Below, one piece after another: positions 27,832-43,134 of a stretch of DNA of 64,000 nt (the first letter of the stretch is position 1; every line of letters starts with the position of its first letter). Source of the stretch: an uncultured Gammaproteobacteria bacterium. Lineage in GTDB: Bacteria > Patescibacteriota > Microgenomatia > UBA8517. The stretch lies in assembly GCA_964395115.1 (NCBI GenBank), contig CAYMZX010000006.1, forward strand, positions 26,041-90,040, read 5' to 3'. A program made the position numbers and the translations under genes. The notes below the pieces were generated by a model. The model was not told the DNA's origin. It did no database searches and worked only from the letters and a program-made list of their open reading frames with translations.

Positions 27832-27884
27832 ATCGTGTAAAGACAGAAAAAGGCAGATTAAACTTAGGGCCACCCGAGGCATCG

Positions 27885-27959
27885 GGGTGGCTGACGCGAT
27901 TCGAACGCGCAACCTCAAGGTCCACAACCTCGCGCTCTAGCCATTGAGCTACAGCCACC
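27885..27959 (-). tRNA. tRNA-His (GTG) with an encoded G-1; no CCA
   Basis: Cloverleaf parsed by hand: G-1 pairs with C73, U8, anticodon loop TTGTGGA, T-loop TTCGAAT. Confidence 0.8.
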
Positions 27960-28060
27960 AAATTGAGGATGCTAAATAATATTATAGCAAAACCTAATTA
28001 AAAAAATTAGAAAATCGCTTCCCGGGCGAGGATTTAATTTAACAACCTTTCCAGGGGGGA

Positions 28061-28561
28061 TTATTGAAGCTTCGATTTGGGGTTTACCCAAAGCATCCAT
28101 CCATCAACCCATGTTCGACCATGAACATCCAGAGTGTCGTACCAGCGTTTATTAAATTCATTTTTACCTATCTGCCAAATTCCTTTACGTGACGTAGAAG
28201 GATCAACAAGGGTTAACACTTTAGCCTTTTTGTCGTAATCGCCGACTATCGAATAATGTCCGCAAGGTTCGTCTTCATCTAAGTCATCGGTCCAGTTTAC
28301 AATAACAATATTTCCTTTATTTAAATGATGTTCAATGTCGGCAAAAATGGCATTTATTTTGTAGTTTACGATCTTGAAAAATTTACTTAGGTAGGACAGC
28401 ATGATTTGCTGATTGGTACCCCACCAATCTTTGTAAATCGCCCTGGCTATTTCCTTCTGAGTTTTTTTTATCCCCACGGCAAGGAGAACCATTTGAACCA
28501 CCGCCGGTCCGCACCAGCCGGGTTTTTCCTGAAAACGGTGATATTTATTCCATGAAATCAT
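28061..28561 (-). CDS. Papain-like cysteine peptidase (C39_2/BtrH-like)
   Basis: GWCGPAVVQM catalytic Cys context and a downstream CGHYSIV His. Confidence 0.55.
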   Translation of the reverse strand: MISWNKYHRFQEKPGWCGPAVVQMVLLAVGIKKTQKEIARAIYKDWWGTNQQIMLSYLSKFFKIVNYKINAIFADIEHHLNKGNIVIVNWTDDLDEDEPCGHYSIVGDYDKKAKVLTLVDPSTSRKGIWQIGKNEFNKRWYDTLDVHGRTWVDGWMLWVNPKSKLQ

Positions 28562-28563
28562 AA

Positions 28564-28634
28564 GAGCGGGGTACGGGAGTCGAACCCGTCTTCTCAGCTT
28601 GGAAAGCTGATGTTGAACCGCTCAACTAACCCCG
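28564..28634 (-). tRNA. tRNA-Gly (TCC)
   Basis: Hand-folded cloverleaf: acceptor GCGGGGT/ACCCCGC, anticodon loop TTTCCAA. Confidence 0.8.
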
Positions 28635-28642
28635 CTAATGGT

Positions 28643-28719
28643 TTGGTCGGGGAGGGCGGACTCGAACCGCCGACCTCACGCTCCCAAAGCGCGCACTCTA
28701 ACCAACTGAGCTACTCCCC
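28643..28719 (-). tRNA. tRNA-Pro (TGG), CCA encoded
   Basis: Acceptor CGGGGAG/CTCCCCG, anticodon loop TTTGGGA, T-loop TTCGAGT. Confidence 0.85.
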
Positions 28720-28736
28720 GTTAATTTCCCGCGATT

Positions 28737-28822
28737 GTGCCGGGAGGGAGACTCGAACTCCCACGCTACATTCGTAGCAACAGATTTTAAGTCTGTCCTG
28801 TCTACCGTTCCAGCATCCCGGC
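28737..28822 (-). tRNA. tRNA-Leu (TAA), type II long variable arm
   Basis: Acceptor GCCGGGA/TCCCGGC, anticodon loop CTTAAAA, long variable stem-loop. Confidence 0.8.
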
Positions 28823-28917
28823 CCACCTGCAAGTGATATTTTACTATATAATTGACATTTCTTCAGCTTTTCTCTAGTCTAAAATTAATAGCGTTTAGGA
28901 GGGGAGGTGATATAAAG

Positions 28918-29304
28918 GTGAGAAAGCCGGTGGCTTTATTAATTTTCTGGATGTTAAACTGCATAATTCTTTACGTCGCCTCTGTTATTTTCCCGCAAAG
29001 TTATGAATTGGGTACCTATCGAATTAGCGAGTTATCGTCAGCGATCTTTGCTGGTTTTTCCTGGACGGCCCTTGTGTGGATAGGCAAGCAAATATTAAAG
29101 CGGTTTGGAGTGAAGCTAGCCAAGGAAAAAGAACGAGTAGTCTATTATTATATTCCCGCCAACTTCATTGCTCTGTGGCTAATATCTAGATTCAGCTACT
29201 TTTTCGGATTCGGAATTGTTAGTTTCTGGTGGGCCCTATTGCTTGGAGTTGCGGCCGCTTTTTTGCAGTTTGGTGTCTGGAGGCTAGTAAAAAAAGGTAA
29301 ATAG
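28918..29304 (+). CDS. Hypothetical 4-TM membrane protein (GTG start after a GGAGGTGA RBS; a longer alternative starts at 28852)
   Basis: ORF plus hydrophobic helices. There is no RBS before the upstream ATG. Confidence 0.4.
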   Translation: MRKPVALLIFWMLNCIILYVASVIFPQSYELGTYRISELSSAIFAGFSWTALVWIGKQILKRFGVKLAKEKERVVYYYIPANFIALWLISRFSYFFGFGIVSFWWALLLGVAAAFLQFGVWRLVKKGK

Positions 29305-29309
29305 ATCAA

Positions 29310-29384
29310 TGGCGCCCCTGGAAGGAATCGAACCCTCACCTCATGGTCCGAAGCCATGCGCTCTATCCGTTAAGCCACAGGGGC
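29310..29384 (-). tRNA. tRNA-Arg (TCG), CCA encoded
   Basis: Acceptor GCCCCTG/CAGGGGC, anticodon loop CTTCGGA. Confidence 0.85.
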
Positions 29385-29419
29385 ATTAAATTATTTTCGC
29401 TATAATTATACCTCATAAA

Positions 29420-30493
29420 ATGAGTTTTACCCAAACAGTCAACGCCCTCGAAGAAGAAATACGAAAAACTCCTTACAATAAGGCAACGGAACATCATATT
29501 GGCAAACTCCGAGCGAGATTAGCCCGAATTAAAGAAAAACAACTGGAAAAAGAAAATAGGTCGGTGGGGGGCGGAACTGGATTTGCCGTCAAAAAACAAG
29601 GCGATGCCACTGTTGTTTTAATCGGACCTCCTTCGGTCGGAAAATCAACTCTTTTAAACCGTCTGACTAATGCTAAATCAAAAGTGGCACCATATATTTT
29701 TTCTACCGTCTCGGTTATACCGGGAATGCTTCTTTACCGAAATGCCCATATCCAGATTTTGGATCTTCCTGGTCTGATTGAGGGAGCCCGTCAGGGTAAA
29801 GGATTGGGGAAAGAGGTTATTTCGGTAGCCCGCGTTGCTGACCTACTTGTTATTATGTCTGAAATTGGAAAGGAGGACTCGAGTAAGACTATTTTGAACG
29901 AATTAGAGAAAGCCGGCATTCGTATAAACAAGGAAAGACCTAAGATTAAAATTCAAAAAAAAATTTCCGGAGGAATAGTCATCTGTTCCAATACCAAACA
30001 ATTATTATCCAAGGAGACAATTAGAGATGTTGTTTCGGAATTTGGAATTAAAAATGCTACAGTAACACTGGAGGAAAATATTACATTAGATCAATTACTG
30101 GACTGTCTCTCTCAAAGCACGGTTTATTTGCCTGCGATTTTTGTTGTCAACAAAGCCGATAAGATAAAAAAACGAACCCAACTTACTTATGATGATATTC
30201 TATATATTAGTGCAAAAGACGGCTCTGGTCTCGAACAGTTAAAAGAAAAAATTTGGGAAAAATTAAAACTAGTGGAATTATATTTGATCAAGCCCGGCGA
30301 ACCCATGGGAAGACATACACCAATTATTATGAAAAAAGGCGAAACTCTTTACGATATAACCTTGAAAATAGGGTCTGAATTTGCTAGGAGTAAAAAGCTA
30401 GCTAAAATCTGGGGCGGTTCTGCTAGTTTTCCTGGGCAGTCGGTACCTTTAACAAGGGTAGTTGAACAAGATCTGATGGTTATGTTTATATGA
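29420..30493 (+). CDS. DRG/Rbg1-like OBG-family GTPase with a C-terminal TGS domain
   Basis: DRG-type N-terminus (NKATEHHIGKLRARLARIK), G1 GPPSVGKST, G3 DLPGL, G4 NKAD, and a TGS-like C-terminus. Confidence 0.75.
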   Translation: MSFTQTVNALEEEIRKTPYNKATEHHIGKLRARLARIKEKQLEKENRSVGGGTGFAVKKQGDATVVLIGPPSVGKSTLLNRLTNAKSKVAPYIFSTVSVIPGMLLYRNAHIQILDLPGLIEGARQGKGLGKEVISVARVADLLVIMSEIGKEDSSKTILNELEKAGIRINKERPKIKIQKKISGGIVICSNTKQLLSKETIRDVVSEFGIKNATVTLEENITLDQLLDCLSQSTVYLPAIFVVNKADKIKKRTQLTYDDILYISAKDGSGLEQLKEKIWEKLKLVELYLIKPGEPMGRHTPIIMKKGETLYDITLKIGSEFARSKKLAKIWGGSASFPGQSVPLTRVVEQDLMVMFI

Positions 30494-30504
30494 AGCAGTG
30501 TTTT

Positions 30505-30513
30505 TGATATAAT
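30505..30513 (+). promoter_or_regulatory. Extended -10 element TGaTATAAT about 12 nt upstream of the tRNA array
   Basis: Sequence TGATATAAT at 30505-30513; the first tRNA starts at 30525. Confidence 0.35.
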
Positions 30514-30524
30514 CTACACGTACT

Positions 30525-30608
30525 GCAGACGTGGCGGAATGGTAGACGCGTACGGTTCAGGGCCGTATGAGGTTTACCCTCGTAGAGGTTCAAATCCTCT
30601 CGTCTGCA
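30525..30608 (+). tRNA. tRNA-Leu (CAG), type II
   Basis: Acceptor GCAGACG/CGTCTGC+A, anticodon stem TACGG/CCGTA with loop TTCAGGG, T-loop TTCAAAT. Confidence 0.85.
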
Positions 30609-30609
30609 C

Positions 30610-30685
30610 TCGCAGCTCGTGAGAGATCGGATTTGAAAGTGCCAAGTAAGGAAAACGCTTTGCACACAAATCCTCTCGTCTGCAC
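30610..30685 (+). repeat. 57-nt insert (30610-30666) followed by an exact 19-nt direct repeat (30667-30685) of the tRNA-Leu(CAG) 3' end (30591-30609)
   Basis: Direct string identity caaatcctctcgtctgcac at both positions. Confidence 0.85.
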
Positions 30686-30692
30686 CCGACAA

Positions 30693-30775
30693 GCACTCGT
30701 GGCGGAATTGGCATACGCGATAGCTTGAGGAGCTATGCCCGTAAGGGCGTGGGAGTTCGAGTCTCCCCGAGTGCA
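30693..30775 (+). tRNA. tRNA-Leu (GAG), type II
   Basis: Acceptor GCACTCG/CGAGTGC+A, anticodon stem ATAGC/GCTAT with loop TTGAGGA. Confidence 0.85.
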
Positions 30776-30776
30776 C

Positions 30777-30858
30777 TCACATACGTTCGTGCTCACGTGG
30801 ATGCTCGATAGTGCCAAGTAAGGTAAGAGGCTTTGCACACGAGTCTCCCCGAGTGCAC
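30777..30858 (+). repeat. 63-nt insert (30777-30839), related to the previous insert, followed by an exact 19-nt direct repeat (30840-30858) of the tRNA-Leu(GAG) 3' end (30758-30776)
   Basis: Identity cgagtctccccgagtgcac at both positions. The inserts share ctc.ca..cg.tcgtg at the start and agtgccaagtaagg.aa...gctttgcacac at the end. Confidence 0.85.
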
Positions 30859-30868
30859 AAAAACAGTT

Positions 30869-30942
30869 GGTCGCTTAGCTCAGCCGGTTAGAGCGTGCGG
30901 TTTACATCCGCAAGGTCGCAGGTTCGATTCCTGCAGCGACCA
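30869..30942 (+). tRNA. tRNA-Val (TAC)
   Basis: Acceptor GGTCGCT/AGCGACC, anticodon loop TTTACAT. Confidence 0.85.
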
Positions 30943-30947
30943 CAAAT

Positions 30948-31020
30948 GCTGGGATAGCCAAGGTGGTCACGGCGGGCGCCTGAAGAGCGTCAGATGTGTG
31001 TTCGACTCACACTCCCAGCA
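30948..31020 (+). tRNA. tRNA-Phe (GAA)
   Basis: Acceptor GCTGGGA/TCCCAGC, anticodon loop CTGAAGA, T-loop TTCGACT. Confidence 0.75.
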
Positions 31021-31025
31021 CCTAA

Positions 31026-31097
31026 GCGGGCGTAGTTTACCGGCAAAACGCTTCCTTGCCAAGGAAGAGAAAGTGGGTTCAATTCCCATCGCCCGCT
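31026..31097 (+). tRNA. tRNA-Gly (GCC)
   Basis: Acceptor GCGGGCG/CGCCCGC, anticodon loop TTGCCAA. Confidence 0.85.
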
Positions 31098-31101
31098 CTG
31101 C

Positions 31102-31175
31102 GCCCCCGTAGCTCAATTGGACAGAGCATATCGGTTCTAACGATGCGGTTGAGCGTTCGAGTCGCTCCGGGGGCA
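31102..31175 (+). tRNA. tRNA-Arg (TCT)
   Basis: Acceptor GCCCCCG/CGGGGGC, anticodon loop GTTCTAA, T-loop TTCGAGT. Confidence 0.8.
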
Positions 31176-31179
31176 CTTG

Positions 31180-31226
31180 GGGCCTGTAGCTTAACGGTAG
31201 AGCGATTAACTCTTTAGATTGAAAAT
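31180..31226 (+). pseudogene. Truncated tRNA-like 5' fragment (acceptor + D-arm + anticodon-loop-like CTCTTTA), homologous to the 5' half of the following tRNA-Lys. No 3' half.
   Basis: GGGCCTGTAGCTTAACGGTAGAGCG aligns with GGGCCGCTAGCTCAACGGTAGAGCG. No T-arm or 3' acceptor strand was found downstream. Confidence 0.45.
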
Positions 31227-31317
31227 GGGCCGCTAGCTCAACGGTAGAGCGGCGCCCTCTTAAGGCGACGGTTCCGAGTTCGAATCTCGGGCGGCTCACA
31301 GAAGCCCATTTTCAATC
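31217..31317 (+). repeat. 14-bp perfect inverted repeat GATTGAAAATGGGC / GCCCATTTTCAATC (31217-31230 and 31304-31317) bracketing tRNA-Lys(CTT)
   Basis: Exact reverse complement. The last 4 nt of the left arm are the first 4 nt of the tRNA. Confidence 0.8.
31227..31298 (+). tRNA. tRNA-Lys (CTT). The anticodon stem has one G.A mismatch.
   Basis: Acceptor GGGCCGC/GCGGCTC (one GU pair), D-arm GCTC/GAGC, anticodon loop CTCTTAA, T-arm CCGAG-TTCGAAT-CTCGG. Confidence 0.6.
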
Positions 31318-31410: not shown

Positions 31411-32049
31411 ATGGACTTGCCTTCACATATTATTGAAGAAGGGGCATTTTCTTTTTGGAAAAATTTATTGATGGTATTTATTTTTTTTACCATCACCCCC
31501 ATCGTAATCGGGACTAGTCTATTTGCACTTGTTTTACTTAATGATTCCCCGAAAGCAGAGTCGGATTCTGCAAGTATGCAGTTAAATGTTTATTCGAAAT
31601 CCGGAGTTAGAATATTTGCCTCATTGCCAACGTCTGTTCCTTCCATTGGCGATAAAATAGAGTCGGCCGATGCCCGAGCTGAACTTATCAGACAATACTT
31701 AGCTGACTTCAACTCCCCGCTAGAACCTTATGCTTATTTAATAGTCGCCGCCGCAGATAAATACAAACTGGATTTTCGCTTAACTACCGCTATCGCGCAA
31801 AAAGAATCTAATCTCTGCAAAGTTATTCCCCCAGGGAGTTTTAATTGCTGGGGATGGGGAATTCATAGCCAGGGAACTTTGGGTTTTGATTCTTTCGAAG
31901 AAGGAATTGAAGTAGTTTCGCGAGGGTTACGGGAAGAATATTTAAATAAAGGATATCTAACGATCGAGGAAATAATGTCTAAATATACTCCCTTGTCCAA
32001 GGGCTCCTGGGCTTCGGGAGTTACAAAATTCATGAACGATATACAATAA
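31411..32049 (+). CDS. Membrane-anchored putative peptidoglycan hydrolase (glucosaminidase/lysozyme-like); paralog of 32926-33501
   Basis: N-terminal TM helix. Shares the motifs SPLEPYAY..AAD.YKLD.RL..AI..ES and NCWGWG with its paralog, with weak resemblance to the FlgJ-type glucosaminidase domain. The start codon is uncertain. Confidence 0.4.
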   Translation: MDLPSHIIEEGAFSFWKNLLMVFIFFTITPIVIGTSLFALVLLNDSPKAESDSASMQLNVYSKSGVRIFASLPTSVPSIGDKIESADARAELIRQYLADFNSPLEPYAYLIVAAADKYKLDFRLTTAIAQKESNLCKVIPPGSFNCWGWGIHSQGTLGFDSFEEGIEVVSRGLREEYLNKGYLTIEEIMSKYTPLSKGSWASGVTKFMNDIQ

Positions 32050-32092: not shown

Positions 32093-32875
32093 ATGAGTGC
32101 ACACTATGATACATATGATTACCCGACTTACTGGGAAGGTCGCGATTATGAACACCGGTCAGAAATTATCGCCATAAAATCCTTCTTGGATCGCATACCC
32201 AAGACAGATCGACTACTCGAAATTGGGGCCGGCTATGGCAGATTAATACCTGTTTATATCTATCGGGCCAAAAGAGTGATAATTACTGACCCCTCGGCAA
32301 AACTTTTGTGTCTGGCTAGAAGGAAGTTCGCAGGTCAGAAAAAAATAAAAATAATTCAGTCCACCGCTGAAAATTTGGGCAAAAAAATTTCGTCGAAATC
32401 CGTAGATTTAATAATAGTCGTCAGGGTTTTGCACCATATTCAAAATCTCGATCATTTCTTTCGCCTGGTCTATAAATTGCTGAAACCAGGCGGTTACCTT
32501 ATTTTAGAATTTCCAAACAAGGTTCATCTTAAGGCTACTATCAGAGAATTCGCAAGTGGTAATTTTACATATCCGCTGGAAATTTTTACGAAGAATTTTG
32601 CTGAAAAAAAACGGAAGAAAAAGTTTATTCCTTTCCAAAATTTTCACCCGGACTTGATAAGACATAAATTAAAAGAATCCTCTTTTATAATTATGGAAGG
32701 ACGTTCTGTTTCTAATATAAGAATTCCCATAATTAAGAAGATCATTCCTGTTGATTTCCTTTTGTTTTTGGAAAAATATCTCCAAAAACCTCTTTATTTC
32801 ATTGGATTTGGGCCATCGATTTTTTTACTGGCCAGAAAAAGAGGAAATAATTCTAAAGTCTTGACAACCCTATAA
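32093..32875 (+). CDS. Class I SAM-dependent methyltransferase
   Basis: Motif I LLEIGAGYGRL, plus post-I acidic and motif II/III spacing. Confidence 0.7.
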   Translation: MSAHYDTYDYPTYWEGRDYEHRSEIIAIKSFLDRIPKTDRLLEIGAGYGRLIPVYIYRAKRVIITDPSAKLLCLARRKFAGQKKIKIIQSTAENLGKKISSKSVDLIIVVRVLHHIQNLDHFFRLVYKLLKPGGYLILEFPNKVHLKATIREFASGNFTYPLEIFTKNFAEKKRKKKFIPFQNFHPDLIRHKLKESSFIIMEGRSVSNIRIPIIKKIIPVDFLLFLEKYLQKPLYFIGFGPSIFLLARKRGNNSKVLTTL

Positions 32876-32925: not shown

Positions 32926-33501
32926 GTGAGCGTTAGGATTTTTTCTTGGGGGTCGCCTAACGGCGACCCTCTTTTTTGTCCGTCTATGAAAAACCTGTTA
33001 CTTGCTTTTATATTTGGATTACTTTTTTTTAGGTTCGCCAGTCCTGTTCTGGCTGAGCCGATAGTCGCCGAATCCTCGGCTATTACCCAAAAAAACACAA
33101 TCCCGAAGGATATACGGGTTAAAATTCTTCAGACTTTTTTAAGAAAACAAAATTCTCCATTAGCCGAATACGCTTATGAATTCATTCTAGTGGCAGATCG
33201 CTACAAACTTGATTGGAGATTAGTACCGGCAATTTCAGGAGTTGAGTCAACGTTCGGGAAAAAAATCCCGGCTAACTCATATAATGCCTATGGTTGGGCA
33301 AATGGCAACTATAGTTTCCAATCGTGGAAGGATTCTATAGAAATCGTTTCCAGGAAACTTAAAAATAACTACATTAACAAAGGCGCCGGTTCGATTGCAA
33401 AAATTGGTAAAATATATGCGCCACCGAGTCACACATGGGTAAAAAAGGTAAAATATTTTATGAGAAAAATAGAACCAATTCCTGTTGAGTTTACCATCTA
33501 A
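32926..33501 (+). CDS. Secreted putative peptidoglycan hydrolase (glucosaminidase-like), paralog of 31411-32049
   Basis: Signal peptide. Shares SPLAEYAY...ADRYKLDWRL..AISGVEST and NAYGWANG with its paralog. Confidence 0.4.
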   Translation: MSVRIFSWGSPNGDPLFCPSMKNLLLAFIFGLLFFRFASPVLAEPIVAESSAITQKNTIPKDIRVKILQTFLRKQNSPLAEYAYEFILVADRYKLDWRLVPAISGVESTFGKKIPANSYNAYGWANGNYSFQSWKDSIEIVSRKLKNNYINKGAGSIAKIGKIYAPPSHTWVKKVKYFMRKIEPIPVEFTI

Positions 33502-33522: not shown

Positions 33523-33608
33523 GCCGAGGTGGCGAAATGGTAGACGCGCATGGTTTAGGACCATGTCCACATTAAATGTGGGTGGGGGTTCGAATCCCTT
33601 CCTCGGCA
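33523..33608 (+). tRNA. tRNA-Leu (TAG), type II
   Basis: Acceptor GCCGAGG/CCTCGGC+A, anticodon stem CATGG/CCATG with loop TTTAGGA, T-loop TTCGAAT. Confidence 0.85.
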
Positions 33609-33778
33609 CACGAAAGTATCAGATGGGTATGCGCGAGCCGCGAATGGACGCGCGACGAGCGCATCGTGCGGTGGATTCGGGCAAAATTCAATCCGTTTAT
33701 TCTGCAGTAAGAAGTTCGAGCCGACCTTTTTTGCGATGACTGAAAGTTCATCGCAATTATTTTTTCTGCGCACAATTT
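33609..33778 (+). repeat. 170-bp repeat, copy 1, starting immediately after the tRNA-Leu(TAG) discriminator base
   Basis: Near-identical to 38105-38274 (reverse complement). Its first ~100 nt also occur at 36655-36755. Confidence 0.85.
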
Positions 33779-34370
33779 AACTGGCTTCGCCAGCTTTAGC
33801 CCGCTTTGCGGGCACTTCTTCCTCCCCAAGCTTTGATACTATATCACACTTGTATGCATCCTCATCCAAAATCGGATCCCAGAGATGATCCTTATCAGGA
33901 ACAATATGGATATGGAAATGATCCGGCCTTACTGTTCCAGAAACTGGATCAAAGCGATCAGCTCTAAATCTCCAAAAATGAACGATCTTTTTAACATCGG
34001 AGCCATCTGCTCGCTTTAGTTTTGCGTCAAGCATTTTTCGCTTAACATGAGAAAGAACATCAAGAAGCTCGGCATTTTCTTTATAGGTTTGCTCATCAAA
34101 TTCAACAAAGTGCCTTTTTGAAATGACCATAGTATGCCACCACCAATACGGGGCAAGATTAGCTATCCAAACACAATGCTGAAACTCCTTCAGTACAATT
34201 TGATATTTATTCCAATGACAAAAGGTGCAGACGTCCTTTGGGATGCTCGGAATAAAAACCTTATCATACTCCTCACGGCTGAGAAGCCTTGTAGGAGGAG
34301 TTTCTACTTTCTCCAACTTTTTTGGGTTGTCTTTTTGCATAATTAACCATATTTTAGCACGAAGTGCCAA
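33777..34370 (-). CDS. HIT-family nucleotide hydrolase/transferase with an N-terminal CxxC (GalT/Ap4A-phosphorylase-like branch)
   Basis: Histidine triad DHFHIHIVP and an upstream CTFCHW. Paralog of 35973-36443. The start may be the internal MQKDNP. Confidence 0.65.
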   Translation of the reverse strand: MALRAKIWLIMQKDNPKKLEKVETPPTRLLSREEYDKVFIPSIPKDVCTFCHWNKYQIVLKEFQHCVWIANLAPYWWWHTMVISKRHFVEFDEQTYKENAELLDVLSHVKRKMLDAKLKRADGSDVKKIVHFWRFRADRFDPVSGTVRPDHFHIHIVPDKDHLWDPILDEDAYKCDIVSKLGEEEVPAKRAKAGEAS

Positions 34371-34377
34371 GCTTCGC

Positions 34378-34954
34378 TTACAACTCGACCTCTATTACTT
34401 GCAAATTATCCCATTTTAATTTTCTTAGCACATCAAAAATTAGTTGAGGGTACTCTGTCCAGGGAACATCCGCAACTTTCAAAAGAAAATGCCTAAAAAA
34501 GGTGCCATGCCCAACAATAGCGATCTTTTGATATTTCTTTGTTTTTTTCTCCTTGAGCAAAAATTGATAAAGCCTTTCAACTCTATTAGCAACAGAAGCA
34601 AAAGACTCTCCCCCCTTTAGGCTCCCAATATATATTCATCTTGTCTTTTTTGTGTTTGACTTCCCAAAAATCCGTTGCAAATTTCCTTGGCTTGCCGATG
34701 ATTTCTTTTGGAGTCCCATATTCTTTTATGAAATTAAGAATCTTGTAATTTTCTTTTCCGAAAATTAAATCTGCAGTCTCTTTAGCCCTCTGCATGGGAG
34801 AACAAAAAACAAAGTCTACTTCTCCAATCTTATTCTTGACTTGTTCCACTTTATCTAAAGTTTCAGAGTCTATAACAATCGGAGTTACATGTCTTTGAGT
34901 TAGCAGATCTTCCGCATCTCTTGTTCTTGCGTGCCTGATGAGATAGATTTTCAT
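34378..34954 (-). pseudogene. Histidine phosphatase (phosphoglycerate-mutase family) gene split by a frameshift in a C7/G7 homopolymer (34610-34616)
   Basis: The N-terminal ORF (LIRHARTRD, catalytic RHG) and the C-terminal ORF (IVGHGTFFRHFL) are in different frames. A 1-nt shift in the G7 run gives the continuous ...EPKGGESFASVANRVERLYQFL... Confidence 0.7.
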
Positions 34955-35352
34955 TAGCCAGTTTGTCCTAATCTTGGCCTCCTACCGGTACTGCCTAGAT
35001 AACTAAAATCTCTGTAAAACCTTCGCAAACTGCCTCCTTCGTCTCTTATCCCCGGTCTTACATTTCTTAGTAACTCTGCTACCTCCGGTTTTCGGGCATA
35101 CTCGACAACTTCCTCCCAATTTACTGGGGTACTGATTAGTGGGTACTGAGGATTTACCCCATCTACAAAAATTACAGAAATTTGTTCTCCCAAGCGTCTT
35201 GCCAAAGCACATCTATGTAATCCATCCACTATTGCCGGTACACCATCGCTTATTTCGATAACTGGTGGTGCAACAGTATATTTTAAGTTATAGTAAATGT
35301 GGTCGAGTTTAAAAATATCAACACCATCCTCGCTTAATATATCTTCACGCAT
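34954..35352 (-). CDS. ParB/sulfiredoxin-fold (ParB-like nuclease domain) protein
   Basis: IVDGLHRCALARRLG resembles the ParB N-terminal DGxHR...LG motif. 132 aa; its stop is adjacent to the start of the next gene. Confidence 0.45.
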   Translation of the reverse strand: MREDILSEDGVDIFKLDHIYYNLKYTVAPPVIEISDGVPAIVDGLHRCALARRLGEQISVIFVDGVNPQYPLISTPVNWEEVVEYARKPEVAELLRNVRPGIRDEGGSLRRFYRDFSYLGSTGRRPRLGQTG

Positions 35353-35560
35353 CGAGGCTACAAATTGAAGGTTACTTGTTAGAACATATTTCGCGATTGG
35401 ATATAAATCGTTTGGGTCAAATGTTCTTATTGATATCTCTGCGCTTCTGTAAAGCGAACCCTGCCATCTAAGGTTCTAGTGTCACGAACAGCCTCTAATA
35501 GTTGTAACTTTGGCTCGGTTTCTAGTTCGAATATCGCTTCATTCATTCTTTCTATATTGG

Positions 35561-35923
35561 TTATAAGAAGTATTTAGAGATATCAGTCCAGTTAGTAAAT
35601 CTCAGAGCCCTATCATCAATGTAAACCAAAGCATTGGGCTTTACGGCTGTTATATCGTGATAATGCTTATTTAGTTCGAATCCATTTTCCGATAGCCATT
35701 TAGTCATTTTATTTTTCTCAAGGTTTGTATCCTCATTCACCTCTGGGTTTAGTCGGATTGTAAAGATTACTACCTTATAACCTTTCTCAACCATTCTTTC
35801 CATTTGATCCCTAGCTCCTTTCATCGGAGGATCATAAATGGAACCGTCCTGCCAACCTTTGCTGTATCGATGGATCACACCATCAAAATCAATACAAATA
35901 GCTTTTTGCTTCATGATAGTCAA
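35561..35923 (-). CDS. Small HAD-superfamily phosphatase (5' nucleotidase / PNK 3'-phosphatase-like)
   Basis: Motif I ICIDFDGVI (DxDG), motif III K, and a C-terminal YIDDR acidic motif. Confidence 0.45.
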   Translation of the reverse strand: MTIMKQKAICIDFDGVIHRYSKGWQDGSIYDPPMKGARDQMERMVEKGYKVVIFTIRLNPEVNEDTNLEKNKMTKWLSENGFELNKHYHDITAVKPNALVYIDDRALRFTNWTDISKYFL

Positions 35924-35972
35924 AGTATATCAAAAACTTGTAAAAATTGACAACAAACGAACGCGGTTGGTT

Positions 35973-36443
35973 TTATTGGAGCAAACCCAATATCTTCTTT
36001 TTAAGCTCATTAGGAGACATGCGAACTGTATGGATGTTGGCAATAAAACCCGCAAAGCCGTTTATCGGTTGGTGGTGAACTCTGGGGATTATTTGCCAGT
36101 GAAGATGTTTCACAGATGAACCAGATTCTGGGCCAACATTGAAGCCGATGTTAAAGGATTTTGTGTCAAAGATTTTTAAAAGAATTGTTTTTGTCTGTTC
36201 AGTCAGTCCCTGAAGTTCTCCCCACTCGTTTTTGTTAAGATCTGATGTATCTTCAGCGTGGCGTTTTAATACCAACATCAAGTTCCCATCGAAAATGGGG
36301 TATTGATTGACAAAAATCATCCAGCTTTTCCCTTCCAGAGGTTTGATATTTTGTTTCTCGATTATTTGTCTGTCACAAAAGGGGCAATTTTTATTGTGGT
36401 AGTTGTGATTGTATTTTAATCTGTATGGATTATAAACTTTCAT
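35973..36443 (-). CDS. HIT-family protein with an N-terminal CxxC (HxHxQ variant)
   Basis: CPFCDR and KHLHWQIIPR. Paralogous to 33777-34370. Confidence 0.7.
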   Translation of the reverse strand: MKVYNPYRLKYNHNYHNKNCPFCDRQIIEKQNIKPLEGKSWMIFVNQYPIFDGNLMLVLKRHAEDTSDLNKNEWGELQGLTEQTKTILLKIFDTKSFNIGFNVGPESGSSVKHLHWQIIPRVHHQPINGFAGFIANIHTVRMSPNELKKKILGLLQ

Positions 36444-36537
36444 AGCGTCAATTCAATAATGCTTAAGAATATCATAATTTGCTATACTGAAAACATATTT
36501 AAAATTTTTGCCTTTTTATTTCTGCCTAGAGGTGGTG

Positions 36538-36755
36538 TTCGAGCCGACTTTTTTTGCGATGCCATCAGGACGAGCTAGAAATGGTGCGGCTGTCTGTAGC
36601 GGGCGGCAGCCGCTCCGCTTTGAAATACGTTCGAATTTGAACATATACAGAGCACACGAAAGTATCAGATGGGTATGCGCGAGCCGCGACAGGCCGCGCG
36701 GCGAGCGCATCGTGCGGTGGATTCGGGCAAAATTCAATCCGTTTATCTGAATAAG
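36538..36755 (+). repeat. Permuted copy 2 of the 170-bp repeat: distal segment (36538-36563), ~90 nt unique with palindromes, then proximal 100-nt segment (36655-36755)
   Basis: String matches to copy 1: gttcgagccgac(c)tttttgcgatg and cacgaaagtatcag...caatccgtttat. Confidence 0.75.
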
Positions 36756-36786
36756 AAAAACTAAAAACGCAAAAATTTTAAACACC

Positions 36787-38313
36787 ATGAAATATATAGC
36801 TTACTGTAGAAAATCAACAGATGAGAAGGAAAAACAAATTCTTTCCATTGATCAGCAAATTTATGAATTAAAGCAGTTTGCGCAAAAAGAGAATTTAGAG
36901 ATAGTTGAGTTTTTGACAGAAGCGCAAACTGCTAAGATTCCAGGCAGAAAAGTATTTTCAAACCTGGTGAAGCTGTTAGAAAATGGATATGCTGACGGAA
37001 TTGTTGCGTGGCATCCAGATAGACTAGCAAGAAATTCAATAGATGGTGGTAAAATTATTTATTTGCTAGATGAAGGAAAATTACAGTCCCTGAAATTTCC
37101 TACTTTCTGGTTTGAAAATACTCCACAGGGGAAATTTATGCTTAATATTGCCTTTGGCCAAGCGAAATACTATGTTGATAATTTAAGCGAAAATGTCAAA
37201 AGAGGTTTGCATTTTAAAGCCAGACAAGGTGAGTGGCCTGGCATGGCTCCATTTGGTTATTTCAACGACAAAAATACCCGTTCCATCAAAATTATGCCTG
37301 AACAAGCTAAACTAGTAGAAACAGTTTTTAATAAATTTGCTGACAACGAATTTTCTTCCTTGAGAGAAATCAGAGACTATTTGTTCAGGCACAGTGTAAA
37401 AAGAAAGGACGACAGGCCACTTCACTACAATCAAATTCGTGATATGTTGACGCGTAATCTGTATTACGGAGTTTTTACTTATGCAGGAGAAACTTACGAG
37501 GGTAAACATGAGCCAATAATCTCCAAGAAATTATTTGACCAAGTTCAAGAAGTCATAGCTAGTAAATACAACTCTAAGCCCCAAAAACACGAATTTGATT
37601 TTACTGGTTTTATTAAATGCAAAAATTGCGATTCTTTTATCACTGCAGAACGCCACAAAAAATATTACAAAAAGACTGACAGACACGCAGAATACACTTA
37701 TTACCGTTGTGTCAAAAAGAAAGGGTTTTGTGATCAGCCATATGTCAGAGAGAAAGAGGTTGAATCGCAATTAAGGGAACTTGTGGACAGCGTTGCGCTG
37801 TCTGAGGCGTGGGCTAGGAAAATGTTTGAACTACTTGAAAAAGACGAAATCAGAGAGAAAGGAAAAATCAAGATTGGGCTTGTCCGTCTCACAACTTCCC
37901 TTGAAGTGGTTGAGAAGAAGCTAGACAAACTTCTTGAGTCTTATTTAGAAGAAATTGTTGATACCGAAAGTTATCAAGTCAAAAAGGATCAACTGCTTCA
38001 ACAAAAAATAATTCTCAAAGAGAAAATTGAGGAGATTAAGACCAAAGGAAGTGTTTGGCTCGAACCTATGAGGGAATTTATAAATATGGCCGCTGATGCG
38101 GCCAAAATTGTGCGCAGAAAAAATAATTGCGATGAACTTTCAGTCATCGCAAAAAAGGTCGGCTCGAACTTCTTACTGCAGAATAAACGGATTGAATTTT
38201 GCCCGAATCCACCGCACGATGCGCTCGCCGCGCGGCCTGTCGCGGCTCGCGCATACCCATCTGATACTTTCGTGTGCCGCCAGAGAGATTCGAACTCTCG
38301 ATTTTCTGGTTGA
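36787..38313 (+). CDS. Large serine recombinase (resolvase/invertase catalytic domain + recombinase domain + zinc ribbon); the C-terminal ~70 aa are encoded by repeat copy 3
   Basis: N-terminal YCRKSTDEKEKQ..SIDQQ (catalytic Ser context), DRLARN, and a Cys-rich CKNCDS...YYRCVKKKGFC zinc ribbon. The ORF has no stop until 38313, inside tRNA-Glu. Confidence 0.85.
   Translation: MKYIAYCRKSTDEKEKQILSIDQQIYELKQFAQKENLEIVEFLTEAQTAKIPGRKVFSNLVKLLENGYADGIVAWHPDRLARNSIDGGKIIYLLDEGKLQSLKFPTFWFENTPQGKFMLNIAFGQAKYYVDNLSENVKRGLHFKARQGEWPGMAPFGYFNDKNTRSIKIMPEQAKLVETVFNKFADNEFSSLREIRDYLFRHSVKRKDDRPLHYNQIRDMLTRNLYYGVFTYAGETYEGKHEPIISKKLFDQVQEVIASKYNSKPQKHEFDFTGFIKCKNCDSFITAERHKKYYKKTDRHAEYTYYRCVKKKGFCDQPYVREKEVESQLRELVDSVALSEAWARKMFELLEKDEIREKGKIKIGLVRLTTSLEVVEKKLDKLLESYLEEIVDTESYQVKKDQLLQQKIILKEKIEEIKTKGSVWLEPMREFINMAADAAKIVRRKNNCDELSVIAKKVGSNFLLQNKRIEFCPNPPHDALAARPVAARAYPSDTFVCRQRDSNSRFSG
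38105..38274 (-). repeat. 170-bp repeat, copy 3 (inverted relative to copies 1 and 2), starting immediately after the tRNA-Glu discriminator base
   Basis: Reverse complement of copy 1 with a few substitutions. Its GC hairpin is identical to that of copy 2. Confidence 0.85.
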
Positions 38314-38348
38314 GAACCAGACGTCCTGGGCCACTAGACGATGGCGGC
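38275..38348 (-). tRNA. tRNA-Glu (CTC)
   Basis: Acceptor GCCGCCA/TGGCGGC+A, D-arm GTCTAGTGGCCCAGGAC, anticodon loop TTCTCAA, T-loop TTCGAAT. Confidence 0.85.
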
Positions 38349-42040: not shown

Positions 42041-42400
42041 GTGAGTAAGAAAAATCCAGTTTCCACAAGTTTTAAGTTTGCGCTTGAAGGATTAAAATTG
42101 GCATTTCTAAGCGAACCTAACTTTAGGGTACATACCTTGTTTGCTATTACAGTCCTGATTCTTGCACTTATTTTGGGGTTTAATTTAGCAGAGTGGACTA
42201 TCCTTCTTTTTACAATCTCTTTTGTTATTGTTATGGAACTTTTTAATACAGCAGTGGAAGCCATTGTTGATTTAGTAAGCCCTGAAATAAAACCAAAAGC
42301 AAAAATTGCCAAAGACGTTGCAGCAGCAGCCGTACTCATCTCAGCCATGGTTGCCGTGATTATCGGGTTTGTCCTTTTTATTCCAAAAATTTTCTCCTAA
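42041..42400 (+). CDS. dgkA: Diacylglycerol kinase (prokaryotic DgkA family)
   Basis: 119 aa, three TM helices, and the conserved N-terminal amphipathic segment and E/N residues. Confidence 0.7.
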   Translation: MSKKNPVSTSFKFALEGLKLAFLSEPNFRVHTLFAITVLILALILGFNLAEWTILLFTISFVIVMELFNTAVEAIVDLVSPEIKPKAKIAKDVAAAAVLISAMVAVIIGFVLFIPKIFS

Positions 42401-43134
42401 GCAAGAAGTGCGATAATTCCGATAACTAAACAATAGAAAGAAAAATATTTAAACTTTTCTTGGGTCAAAAGTTTAATAACCAAATAAATCGCTAAATATC
42501 CAACAAAAAATGAGGTGATAAAGCCAAGAAAGTATAAAGAAAAATTTATACTGTCATTAAAACCATTCCTAAAAAACTCCAGCGCATTTGCTCCAATGAT
42601 AGCCGGGACTGAAAGTAAAAATGAAAATTCAGCCGCAGTTTTTTTATCAATTCCCCTTTTAACACCTGCAAAAATAGTCGATCCTGACCGGGAAATACCC
42701 GGAACAATGGCTATAGCCTGAAAAAGACCAACAAAAAAGGAATCTGCTAAAGAAATGTTTTTTTTGTTACTTGCAGTTTGGTTTGTAATATAATTAAAGC
42801 AAGCTGTAATAAAAAACGCCAAGCCAACAGCGGCAGTTTTTTCAAAAAGATTTTCAAAAAAAGACTGAAATAAAAATCCGATAACAAACGCAGGTATATT
42901 TCCAATAATTATCAGGATTAGACACTTTTTTGTTAGTCTTACTAGCTTTTTTCTAAAATAGATTAATATAGCAAGCATGGTACCGGCATGAAGAAAAACT
43001 TCGAATAAAATTCCCGGCTCTTTAAAAGAAGGTAAAACCTTACCAATCAAAACCAAATGCCCCGAGGAGGAAACCGGTAAAAATTCGGTTAGACCTTGAA
43101 CAATTCCTAAAACAATACTTTCAAATATCCCCAT
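42397..43134 (-). CDS. uppP: Undecaprenyl-diphosphatase
   Basis: N-terminus GxxQGLTEFLPVSSSGH and the BacA fold length. Confidence 0.85.
   Translation of the reverse strand: MGIFESIVLGIVQGLTEFLPVSSSGHLVLIGKVLPSFKEPGILFEVFLHAGTMLAILIYFRKKLVRLTKKCLILIIIGNIPAFVIGFLFQSFFENLFEKTAAVGLAFFITACFNYITNQTASNKKNISLADSFFVGLFQAIAIVPGISRSGSTIFAGVKRGIDKKTAAEFSFLLSVPAIIGANALEFFRNGFNDSINFSLYFLGFITSFFVGYLAIYLVIKLLTQEKFKYFSFYCLVIGIIALLA

What the first reader, a model, noticed from the sequence alone, without database searches (positions are those of the whole stretch)
33777..36443. Five-gene operon of HIT/His-phosphatase/ParB-like/HAD/HIT enzymes: candidate nucleic-acid end-healing or nucleotide-signal-degrading module
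All five genes are co-directional with short or overlapping junctions. The two HIT proteins are paralogs with N-terminal CxxC motifs (GalT/Ap4A-phosphorylase-like branch). The HAD protein is a minimal DxDG phosphatase like PNK-type 3'-phosphatases or 5' nucleotidases. The ParB/Srx-fold protein has the DGxHR..LG signature of ParB-like nuclease/CTPase N-domains. HIT enzymes remove nucleotidyl groups from nucleotide-linked substrates (e.g. Ap4A, adenylylated nucleic-acid 5' ends), and HAD and His-phosphatases remove terminal phosphates. Mobile-element context next to tRNA genes suggests several roles. One is tRNA or nucleic-acid end repair against anticodon-nuclease-type defenses. Another is hydrolysis of nucleotide second messengers, as anti-defense or a defense effector. 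A third is nucleotide salvage cargo.
Basis: inference. Interest (0 to 1): 0.65.

Follow-up and report, generated by a model that had tools for sequence, protein, structure and literature searches.

The report
Mobile kinase–phosphatase–HIT nucleotide module, decaying here
The five genes are real and travel on phages and a recombinase island of tiny uncultivated bacteria, but the conserved unit is only three enzymes (a small phosphatase, a ParB-fold enzyme that most likely works as a kinase, and a nucleotide-cleaving HIT enzyme), and two of the five genes are broken in this genome.

Summary
Five co-directional genes (HIT-A, minimal HAD, ParB/Srx-fold protein, histidine phosphatase, HIT-B) lie at 33777-36443 on the minus strand, beside a large serine recombinase and tRNA genes. 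In this window the ParB-fold gene has a 1-nt deletion and a lost start codon, and the His-phosphatase has a frameshift.

Across about 25 related loci the conserved core is HAD + ParB-CE (Pfam PF24392, 'conflict effector' ParB) + HIT-B. It is found mostly on viral contigs. HIT-A and the His-phosphatase are add-ons in Woesebacteria-like genomes.

In six viral loci the ParB-CE slot, between the same HAD and HIT-B families, holds an unrelated protein-kinase-fold protein. This suggests ParB-CE acts as a kinase here, as do the ParB-fold serine kinases SerK and SbnI.

Glycosyltransferases are the most recurrent neighbours, twice embedded in the module. No ligase, RtcB, P-loop PNK or 2H family ranked among the recurrent neighbour families.

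Best reading, at moderate confidence: a mobile phosphatase–kinase–nucleotidyl (HIT) cassette that activates or salvages a sugar-like compound, analogous to MupP–AmgK–MurU or GmhB–HldE. The rivals are a nucleotide-degrading conflict cascade and end-healing. It is a new variant of a known kind.

The parts
35973..36443 (-). HIT-A: single-domain HIT protein, 156 aa, with a CxxC motif and an HLHWQ (HxHxQ) motif. It resembles Ap4A phosphorylase / ATP adenylyltransferase. It is an accessory gene, found only in the cellular Woesebacteria-type versions of the module.
   Evidence: Pfam HIT 5.5e-10; NF052622 3e-15, far below cutoff; 3ano Rv2613c 9.5e-11.
35561..35914 (-). Minimal capless HAD phosphatase, 117 aa. 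Visible motifs are CIDFDGV, VVIFT, KPN and YIDDR. This is core gene 1.
   Evidence: BT0820 family 2.3e-6, HAD-IIIA 4.5e-4, GmhB 0.0096, all below cutoffs; phrog_1238 1.7e-19; present in nearly all related loci; 30-42% homologs in cultured phages.
34954..35564 (-). ParB-CE (ParB/Srx-fold) gene, about 203 aa when intact. This is core gene 2. It is disrupted here by a 1-nt deletion at about 35456 and a start-codon change, ATG to ATA, at 35562.
   Evidence: (PF24392, 42 bits against a cutoff of 23).
34378..34954 (-). Histidine phosphatase (branch 1), 191 aa when intact. It is an accessory gene. It is frameshifted here at the G6 run 34610-34615.
   Evidence: (His_Phos_1 1.1e-16 on the reconstructed ORF).
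33777..34340 (-). HIT-B: divergent HIT protein with CTFC and HFHIHIVP (HxHxH) motifs. This is core gene 3 and the constant partner of ParB-CE or the kinase-fold protein.
36787..38313 (+). Large serine recombinase (Resolvase + Recombinase + Zn_ribbon_recom), divergent from the operon. Its last roughly 70 codons lie in repeat copy C and run into the antisense strand of tRNA-Glu.
33588..33778 (.). Repeat copy A: a remnant of the recombinase 3' end plus the 95-nt GC-rich element, abutting the 3' end of tRNA-Leu(tag). It is inverted relative to copy C (191 nt, 95%) and direct relative to copy B.
36652..36746 (.). Repeat copy B: the 95-nt element between HIT-A and the recombinase start. It is 100% complementary to copy C. 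Homology to the recombinase-free relative L004 stops at its edge (36656).
38105..38295 (.). Repeat copy C, at the recombinase 3' end and abutting the 3' end of tRNA-Glu(ctc). It contains an imperfect dyad (ATGCGC-TC-GCCGCG / CGCGGC-TC-GCGCAT around an 8-nt spacer), which is a candidate recombination site.
33523..33609 (+). tRNA-Leu(tag), flanking the island.
38274..38348 (-). tRNA-Glu(ctc), flanking the island.

Best explanation
The region is a mobile three-enzyme cassette. It consists of a minimal HAD phosphatase, a ParB/Srx-fold 'ParB-CE' protein acting as an ATP-dependent kinase, and a divergent HIT enzyme that handles an NMP-linked phosphate. In Woesebacteria-type genomes it is extended by an Ap4A-phosphorylase-like HIT (HIT-A) and a histidine phosphatase, and it is carried next to a large serine recombinase at tRNA genes.

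The enzyme logic (remove a phosphate, add a phosphate elsewhere, attach or exchange a nucleotidyl group) matches known salvage and activation routes: MupP–AmgK–MurU for UDP-MurNAc, and kinase–GmhB–nucleotidyltransferase for NDP-heptose. I therefore propose that the cassette converts a sugar-like compound into, or recycles it from, a nucleotide-activated form used by the glycosyltransferases that repeatedly sit next to it.

What is shown: gene content, the folds, the conserved 3-gene core, its presence on viral contigs, the mutually exclusive ParB-CE / kinase-fold swap, glycosyltransferases as the most recurrent neighbour family, and the gene lesions in this window.

What is inferred: that ParB-CE is a kinase, the order of the steps, the nature of the substrate, and the direction of the HIT step.

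In this particular genome the cassette is probably inactive or decaying.
For: - Core conservation. HAD–ParB-CE–HIT-B occur in the same order and are tightly linked across about 17 non-redundant loci.
- Slot swap. In L024, L030, L033, L036, L037 and L038/39 the slot between the same HAD and HIT-B families holds an unrelated ~255-aa protein (hhalign against ParB-CE: probability 0.2%). This protein carries the motifs AIRK, DAKPANW and ID-FPP, and its profile's best PDB hits are the protein kinases TTK and Nek2 (E=0.004, with the catalytic loop and Mg-binding Asp aligned). ParB-CE and this protein never co-occur.
- Kinase precedent in the fold. ParB/Srx-fold small-molecule kinases are among the fold matches (SerK 5x0j, SbnI 5ujd). 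SbnI is the best, though non-significant, sequence match of the ParB-CE profile, through the (I/V)DGxHR motif.
- Coupling to the HAD. A ParB-CE–HAD fusion with the same CIDFD(G/D)V motif exists (P0108).
- Glycosyltransferase neighbours. GT families top both independent neighbour censuses. A GT2 is embedded in the operon in L025. A PIG-L-like (judged by eye), GT1, radical-SAM-like (by eye) and GT2 block is inserted in L016. Co-directional GT, methyltransferase and NDP-sugar epimerase/dehydratase clusters follow the module in L024, L026 and L032. Three GT2 genes abut it in L008.
- HAD affinities. The weak full-length matches of the HAD are to sugar-phosphate and capsule phosphatases (GmhB, EcbF/BcbF, BT0820).
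Against: - No enzyme was assayed and the substrate is unknown.
- Glycosyltransferases are near the module in only about 6-7 of 25 loci, and I did not measure the background GT frequency in these genomes.
- HIT-B keeps the hydrolase-type HxHxH motif rather than the HxHxQ motif typical of GalT- and Apa-type transferases.
- The kinase-fold protein looks more like Ser/Thr protein kinases than like APH- or AmgK-type sugar kinases. Its only Pfam signals are weak: DUF6206 and APH.
- As I recall, the authors who defined the ParB-CE family predicted it to be a nucleotide-degrading immune effector. Distant members are fused to HD, HD-CE and NUDIX, which fits nucleotide degradation at least as well.
- The window's own copy has two disrupted genes, so nothing can be concluded about activity in this organism.
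Confidence: 0.38

Rival explanations
1. Nucleotide-targeting conflict cascade. ParB-CE hydrolyses or otherwise consumes NTPs, and HIT-B with the HAD and His-phosphatase carry the products down to NMP and nucleoside. Phages or islands would use this to deplete a nucleotide pool or destroy a nucleotide-derived immune signal, as defence or counter-defence.
For: - Pfam places the protein in Parb-CE, where CE means 'conflict effector' (meaning of CE from PMC12871103).
- Distant members are fused to HD, HD-CE and NUDIX phosphohydrolases.
- A two-enzyme HAD + Calcineurin-CE dNTP-depleting cascade has been shown experimentally for a sister effector family (PMC12871103).
- The module sits on phages and on a recombinase island.
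- An MBL protein with an Apyc1-like Pfam hit neighbours the module in L004, and an Acb2/Tad1-hairpin protein lies near one viral copy.
Against: - Replacement of ParB-CE by a protein-kinase-fold protein in the same slot is hard to reconcile with a pure NTP-degrading role.
- No sensor or regulatory domain and no known defence gene is linked in the loci inspected. PADLOC gave only a weak HIT-A hit.
- HIT enzymes cannot open cyclic phosphodiester signals.
- Constitutive NTP destruction would harm a replicating phage.
Confidence: 0.25
2. Nucleic-acid end-healing. The kinase (ParB-CE or the kinase-fold protein) phosphorylates 5'-OH ends, the HAD removes 3'-phosphates as in T4 or mammalian PNKP, and HIT-B acts like aprataxin on adenylylated 5' ends. 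The purpose would be to repair tRNA or DNA cut by host nucleases.
For: - The kinase + HAD phosphatase + HIT set mirrors PNKP plus aprataxin (from general knowledge).
- The HAD hits phrog_415 'polynucleotide kinase' (1e-5) and HAD_SAK_2 (0.056).
- Its homologs in cultured phages (32-42% identity in the examples cited) are annotated 'polynucleotide kinase'.
- In phages the module lies among replication and recombination genes: SSB, ERF, DnaB, YopX.
- A Band-7 gene lies near one copy.
Against: - No RNA or DNA ligase, RtcB, P-loop kinase, 2H or Hen1 family ranked among the recurrent families of about 230 neighbouring ORFs.
- HIT-B's nearest structures are Hint, Zn-HIT and Ap4A phosphorylase. Aprataxin and DcpS are absent from the 50 listed matches, and HIT-B has no zinc-finger extension.
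- To my knowledge, no polynucleotide kinase with a ParB fold or a protein-kinase fold is known.
- This idea does not explain the GT and methyltransferase neighbours.
Confidence: 0.1
3. Protein-modification switch for host takeover. A Ser/Thr-type kinase (or a ParB/Srx-type phosphotransferase, as sulfiredoxin acts on a protein) would modify a host or phage protein. The capless HAD would act as the protein phosphatase and the HIT as a de-nucleotidylase.
For: - The kinase-fold protein's best matches are Ser/Thr protein kinases with a D-x-K-P-x-N loop.
- Capless HADs and sulfiredoxin act on proteins (general knowledge; Srx is among the fold hits).
Against: - The kinase match is marginal (E=0.004) and the C-lobe is atypical.
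- No target or regulatory partner is evident.
- The fusions of ParB-CE to NUDIX and HD point to small nucleotide substrates.
Confidence: 0.07

Closest known systems
ParB-CE ('conflict effector' ParB) family, Pfam PF24392; defined, as I recall, by Nicastro, Burroughs, Iyer & Aravind, NAR 2023 (paper not held in the library)
   Same: The window protein, once reconstructed, and all its homologs score above the Pfam threshold. They share the PP(I/V)VE…DGxHR core with the HD-, NUDIX- and HAD-fused members.
   Different: This is a separate stand-alone subfamily of about 200 aa. About 46 cluster representatives score below E=1e-30, out of 854. It has a conserved YRDFSxLGSxGRRPRxGQ tail. It is always paired with a specific HAD and HIT-B, occurs mainly on viral contigs, has no sensor or immune context, and is interchangeable with a kinase-fold protein.
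ParB/Srx-fold small-molecule kinases SerK (PDB 5x0j) and SbnI (PDB 5ujd/5uje), and sulfiredoxin
   Same: The same fold (Foldseek probability 0.9-0.99) and the same (I/V)DGxHR nucleotide-binding motif. The proposed reaction type, ATP-dependent phosphotransfer, is also the same.
   Different: The similarity is very low (TM about 0.3, sequence E=0.12). ParB-CE has extra N-terminal and C-terminal elements. No activity has been tested.
Salvage and activation pathways built from a HAD phosphatase, a kinase and a nucleotidyltransferase: MupP–AmgK–MurU (UDP-MurNAc recycling) and kinase–GmhB–nucleotidyltransferase (NDP-heptose). This comparison rests on general knowledge.
   Same: The same three reaction types sit in one operon. 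The kinase can have a protein-kinase-like fold. Glycosyltransferases are the downstream users.
   Different: The nucleotidyl step would be done by a single-domain HIT rather than a Rossmann-type NTP_transferase. The HAD is a 117-aa capless form. None of the three proteins is an ortholog of the known pathway enzymes.
PUA–Calcineurin-CE–HAD dNTP-depleting defence system (PMC12871103)
   Same: A 'CE'-class nucleotide enzyme works together with a small HAD phosphatase.
   Different: The effector fold is different. There is no PUA sensor. The module here is borne by phages and has an added HIT.
T4 / mammalian PNKP plus aprataxin (end-healing)
   Same: The same combination of kinase, HAD-type phosphatase and HIT. 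The HAD shows weak similarity to PNK-type phosphatases.
   Different: There is no P-loop kinase and no ligase partner. HIT-B is not aprataxin-like.

Membership tests
Pfam Parb-CE (PF24392) | Scores above the family gathering threshold | tested here: met
   42.1 bits against a cutoff of 23 for the reconstructed window protein. The precomputed PF24392 hit is present on nearly all homologs.
Pfam Parb-CE (PF24392) | ParB/Srx fold with a DGxHR-type nucleotide-binding motif | tested here: met
   AF2 model with pLDDT 87. Foldseek hits to ParB N-domain, Noc, Srx, SerK and SbnI. D114, G115, H117 and R118 are invariant.
Pfam Parb-CE (PF24392) | Effector position in an immune system, linked to a sensor or regulatory module (as I recall the 2023 definition) | tested here: not met
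   No sensor or known defence gene appears in about 25 loci. PADLOC gave nothing for this protein.
Pfam Parb-CE (PF24392) | Nucleotide-degrading activity | not testable with these tools
   This needs an enzyme assay.
HIT superfamily | Pfam HIT above threshold and a histidine-triad motif | tested here: met
   HIT-A scores 40.2 bits and has HLHWQ. HIT-B scores 26.3 bits and has HFHIHIV. The cutoff is 21.5. The HIT-B fold is confirmed.
Ap4A phosphorylase / ATP adenylyltransferase (NF052622; Rv2613c) | Equivalog-level score | tested here: not met
   HIT-A scores 56 bits against a cutoff of 290, and HIT-B 23.5 bits. HIT-A is only related to Rv2613c (9.5e-11).
GalT proper | Two-domain protein of about 350 aa that matches the galT models | tested here: not met
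   Both are single-domain proteins of 156 and 187 aa. The galT_1 match has E=0.12.
HAD superfamily (capless, IIIA-like) | The four HAD motifs and family-model scores | tested here: inconclusive
   The motifs DFDG, T, K and DD are visible in the sequence. Pfam and NCBIfam scores are all below their cutoffs. The match to phage family phrog_1238 is clear (1.7e-19).
PNKP-type end-healing enzyme | A P-loop polynucleotide kinase fused or adjacent, and a ligase in the system | tested here: not met
   Neither is found in the window. Neither ranks among the recurrent families of the neighbour censuses.
Histidine phosphatase superfamily, branch 1 | Pfam His_Phos_1 above threshold, with an RHx motif and a second catalytic His | tested here: met
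   61.6 bits against a cutoff of 21.7 on the reconstructed ORF. The IRHART and GHGTF motifs are present. The reading frame is broken in this window.
Large serine recombinase | Resolvase + Recombinase + Zn_ribbon_recom domains | tested here: met
Protein-kinase-like fold (for the protein that replaces ParB-CE in related loci) | VAIK-type Lys, a D-x-K-P-x-N catalytic loop and a DFG-type Asp | tested here: inconclusive
   The motifs are conserved. They align to TTK kinase at E=0.004. There is no significant Pfam hit, and no structure prediction was available.

The most novel reading that the evidence does not exclude
A previously undescribed phage-borne activation pathway. In it a ParB/Srx-fold protein serves as a small-molecule (sugar-type) kinase that is functionally interchangeable with a protein-kinase-fold enzyme. 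A single-domain HIT enzyme, rather than a Rossmann nucleotidyltransferase, would make the nucleotide-activated product that feeds phage or CPR glycosyltransferases.
Probability: 0.2. Interest if true: 0.75.

Novelty: new variant of a known kind. Interest (0 to 1): 0.52.

Why it matters
ParB-CE proteins are currently only a computational prediction of nucleotide-degrading immune effectors. The finding that one subfamily occupies a fixed three-gene cassette, and can be swapped for a kinase-fold protein, gives a concrete and testable hypothesis for what the ParB fold does outside DNA segregation.

It would also add a metabolic or glycosylation-related auxiliary module to the little-known phages of CPR bacteria, whose hosts lack many biosynthetic routes.

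The recombinase with inverted copies of its own 3' end abutting tRNA genes is a separate small lead on how such islands move. For this particular genome the practical message is more modest: the cassette is probably a decaying remnant.

Tried and rejected
- **Structured RNA in the repeat.** An Rfam scan of 27-45 kb found only tRNAs and sub-threshold noise. Folding both strands gave z about 0. Rejected.
- **Homologs in cultured phages or plasmids.** tblastn of ParB-CE and HIT-B against INPHARED phages and PLSDB plasmids found nothing. Only the HAD has homologs, and their contexts were uninformative.
- **Pattern-based locus searches.** The narrower alignment gave few loci.
- **Literature.** The defining ParB-CE paper (PMC10681802) is not held. 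Several searches were uninformative.
- **The two HITs as recent paralogs.** Rejected.
- **The kinase-slot protein as a divergent ParB-CE.** Rejected (hhalign probability 0.2%).
- **DNA-hypermodification precursor pathway.** I considered this because of the GT, methyltransferase and Mom neighbours. I did not pursue it, because no thymidylate-synthase-like hydroxymethylase, dUTPase or deaminase family ranked among the recurrent neighbour families.
- **Promoter and terminator scan.** It gave no more sites than chance.


Full report
**1. What is in the window**

On the minus strand between 36443 and 33777 lie five co-directional ORFs with gaps of 58, 15, -1 and 37 nt.

| Gene | Coordinates | Main evidence |
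|---|---|---|
| HIT-A | 36443..35973 | Pfam HIT 5.5e-10; motif HLHWQ |
| HAD-like, 117 aa | 35914..35561 | CIDFDGV…YIDDR; phrog_1238 1.7e-19; only sub-threshold Pfam/NCBIfam hits (BT0820, HAD-IIIA, GmhB, EcbF/BcbF) |
| ParB/Srx-fold protein | 35564..34954 | Pfam Parb-CE (PF24392), 42 bits against a cutoff of 23 |
| Histidine phosphatase | 34954..34378 | His_Phos_1 1.1e-16 |
| HIT-B | 34340..33777 | Pfam HIT 1.2e-5; motif HFHIHIVP |

A large serine recombinase (36787..38313, plus strand) is divergent from the operon. tRNA-Leu(tag) and tRNA-Glu(ctc) flank the whole unit.

**2. Two of the five genes are broken here**

Full-length ParB-CE homologs are about 203 aa. In the window the gene is split between two frames. 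A metagenomic contig, L004, is 99.4% identical over 2.25 kb. Against it the only indel is a missing C at about 35456, and the ParB-CE start ATG is ATA at 35562.

The His-phosphatase is split at a G6 run (34610-34615). L004 shares this lesion, while relatives at 77-79% nucleotide identity have an intact 191-aa gene. Unless these are assembly errors, the cassette is decaying in this lineage.

**3. The two HIT proteins differ**

They share only 23% identity (E=0.11).
- HIT-A has the HxHxQ motif. Its closest solved relatives are the Ap4A phosphorylases Rv2613c and 6af2, followed by Fhit. It is far below the NCBIfam equivalog cutoff.
- HIT-B belongs to a well-conserved, divergent family with CxFC, WxWIANxAPYWxWHTM and FWRxRxxRxDxxSGxxRPxHFHxHxxPDKDHLWD motifs. 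Its AF2 model (pLDDT 87) matches Zn-HIT 3o0m, Rv2613c and Hint1 best. Neither aprataxin nor DcpS appears among the 50 listed matches, and a GalT-like protein appears only at rank 49.

**4. The conserved unit is three genes, and it is largely viral**

I scanned them with profiles built from the window proteins. This gave about 25 non-redundant loci.
- HAD–ParB-CE–HIT-B, in that order and tightly packed, is the recurrent core.
- It occurs on viral contigs that carry portal, capsid, terminase, SSB, ERF, DnaB-like, YopX and HNH genes. Examples are IMGVR_UViG_3300033073_001254 and loci L025, L026 and L034.
- It also occurs in cellular contigs (L008, L009/10, L018-20).
- HIT-A is found only in the Woesebacteria-type cellular versions.
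- The His-phosphatase is an occasional extra, or a substitute for the HAD (L027, L032).
- The complete five-gene set plus recombinase is found in a complete Candidatus Woesebacteria genome, CP055307.1. There it is 76% identical over 4.6 kb, corresponding to window 33758-38295, but sits at a different chromosomal site next to other tRNAs. The same set occurs in L016.
- No ParB-CE or HIT-B homolog exists in cultured-phage or plasmid collections.

**5. What ParB-CE is**

The AF2 model (pLDDT 87) has a ParB/Srx core. Its matches to solved structures are weak and include ParB and Noc CTPase domains, sulfiredoxin, and the serine kinases SerK and SbnI. Viral structure matches are generic ParB/Srx proteins.

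A profile search found 854 cluster representatives. About 46 of them form the close stand-alone subfamily. More distant members are fused to HD or HD-CE, to NUDIX, and in one case to a HAD with the same CIDFD(G/D)V motif.

'CE' stands for 'conflict effector' (PMC12871103). From memory of the abstract of Nicastro et al., NAR 2023, which is not held in the library, special versions of ParB were predicted there to be nucleotide-degrading immune effectors.

**6. The key new observation**

In six independent viral or phage-like loci (L024, L030, L033, L036, L037, L038/39), the gene between the same HAD and HIT-B families is not ParB-CE. Instead it is an unrelated ~255-aa protein (hhalign probability 0.2%).

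This protein has conserved AIRK, DAKPANW and ID-(F/Y)PP motifs. The best PDB matches of its profile are protein kinases (TTK at E=0.004, Nek2, GRK5), with the catalytic loop and the metal-binding Asp aligned. Pfam gives only weak DUF6206 and APH signals.

ParB-CE and this protein never co-occur. Such a slot swap is the classic signature of non-orthologous displacement. I therefore infer that ParB-CE in this cassette performs an ATP-dependent phosphotransfer, as SerK, SbnI and sulfiredoxin do, rather than simply destroying NTPs. This is an inference and has not been demonstrated.

**7. Context clues to the pathway**

I ran two independent censuses of neighbouring ORFs: 141 ORFs from 18 loci and 86 ORFs from 6 viral loci. 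Both put glycosyltransferase families first, followed by methyltransferases.
- A GT2 is embedded in the operon in L025.
- A block of four genes is inserted between the His-phosphatase and HIT-B in L016. GT1 and GT2 were identified by profile. The PIG-L-like and radical-SAM-like genes I judged by eye from their sequences.
- Co-directional GT, methyltransferase and NDP-sugar epimerase/dehydratase clusters follow the module in L024, L026 and L032.
- Three GT2 genes abut it in L008.
- No ligase, RtcB, P-loop polynucleotide kinase or 2H family ranked among the most recurrent neighbour families.

The GT link is present in only about a quarter of loci, and I did not measure a background rate. It is suggestive, not proven.

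**8. Most likely mechanism**

A phosphatase, a kinase and a nucleotidyl-handling HIT enzyme in one mobile operon follow the logic of salvage and activation routes such as MupP–AmgK–MurU and kinase–GmhB–nucleotidyltransferase (general knowledge). I therefore favour, at about 0.38, a cassette that converts a sugar-like compound to or from a nucleotide-activated form for glycosyltransferases. This would be useful to phages of metabolically poor CPR hosts and to the hosts themselves.

The main rival, at about 0.25, is the nucleotide-degrading conflict cascade implied by the family name and the HD and NUDIX fusions. End-healing, at about 0.10, lacks a ligase and an aprataxin-like HIT. A protein-modification role, at about 0.07, rests only on the kinase-fold resemblance. 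The remainder is unassigned.

**9. Mobility**

The recombinase gene is bracketed by a 95-nt GC-rich element in inverted orientation: copy B at 36652-36746 and copy C at 38183-38277, which are 100% complementary. A third copy, A (33606-33700, 96%), lies beyond HIT-B, so copies A and B form direct repeats around the operon.
- Copies A and C are part of a 191-nt inverted repeat that includes the recombinase 3' end. Both abut tRNA 3' ends.
- The same bracket around the recombinase exists in CP055307.1 and L016.
- Homology to the recombinase-free relative L004 stops exactly at the edge of copy B.
- The element contains an imperfect dyad, 12 of 14 positions around an 8-nt spacer, and shows no RNA-structure signal. 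It may be the recombination site, but I did not test this.

**10. Verdict**

The favoured functional readings of the first stage are not supported. The module is a new variant built around a recently named but uncharacterised ParB family, with a testable kinase hypothesis. In this window it is probably non-functional.

Noticed in passing
window 36652-36746, 38183-38277, 33606-33700 (wider repeats 33588-33778 and 38105-38295): The large serine recombinase gene is bracketed by perfect 95-nt inverted repeats derived from its own 3' end. A third copy makes direct repeats around the five-gene operon. Copies A and C abut tRNA 3' ends. The same bracket occurs in CP055307.1 and L016. This suggests inversion or excision by the recombinase, or tRNA-end targeting.
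   Followed up: partly
L024:6231-7004, L030:266-1075, L033:1173-1898, L036:6240-7001, L037:6300-7016, L038:6213-6998: An uncharacterised family of ~255-aa protein-kinase-fold proteins (DAKPANW motif; weak Pfam DUF6206 hit) replaces ParB-CE between the HAD and HIT-B genes on viral contigs.
   Followed up: partly
window 38274-38313: The recombinase ORF reads about 40 nt into the antisense strand of tRNA-Glu(ctc). Its last residues are therefore probably junction-encoded rather than functional.
   Followed up: no
window 27884-31299: A dense cluster of 12 tRNA genes lies on both strands just upstream of the island, with further tRNAs at 33523, 38274 and 44516.
   Followed up: no
window 42269-42495 (+): A weak partial tmRNA match (17.7 bits against a gathering score of 47; E=0.0012). 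ARAGORN did not call a tmRNA there.
   Followed up: no
window 31411-32049 and 32926-33501 (+): Two paralogous small proteins share a motif (…YKLD(F/W)RL…ESxxGK/CK…). They flank a SAM-methyltransferase-like ORF (32093-32875). They look like cell-wall hydrolase-type proteins, but I did not scan them.
   Followed up: no
L016:4768-8710: A 4-kb block is inserted between the His-phosphatase and HIT-B of an otherwise syntenic island. It contains a GT1-like and a GT2 gene (by profile) and PIG-L/LmbE-like and radical-SAM-like genes (judged by eye).
   Followed up: partly
L004:689-1459: In the 99%-identical relative that lacks the recombinase, the operon is preceded by a metallo-beta-lactamase-fold gene with a Pfam Anti-Pycsar Apyc1 hit.
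   Followed up: no
one of the viral loci L032-L038 (not localised): A protein with an Acb2/Tad1 hairpin domain (an anti-defence sponge family) and a Mom-family DNA-modification protein occur within 7 kb of the module in the viral set.
   Followed up: no
P0108 (344 aa; from the profile search): A natural ParB-CE–HAD fusion. Its ParB motif is altered (DGQNR instead of DGxHR), while its HAD keeps the CIDFDDV motif.
   Followed up: partly
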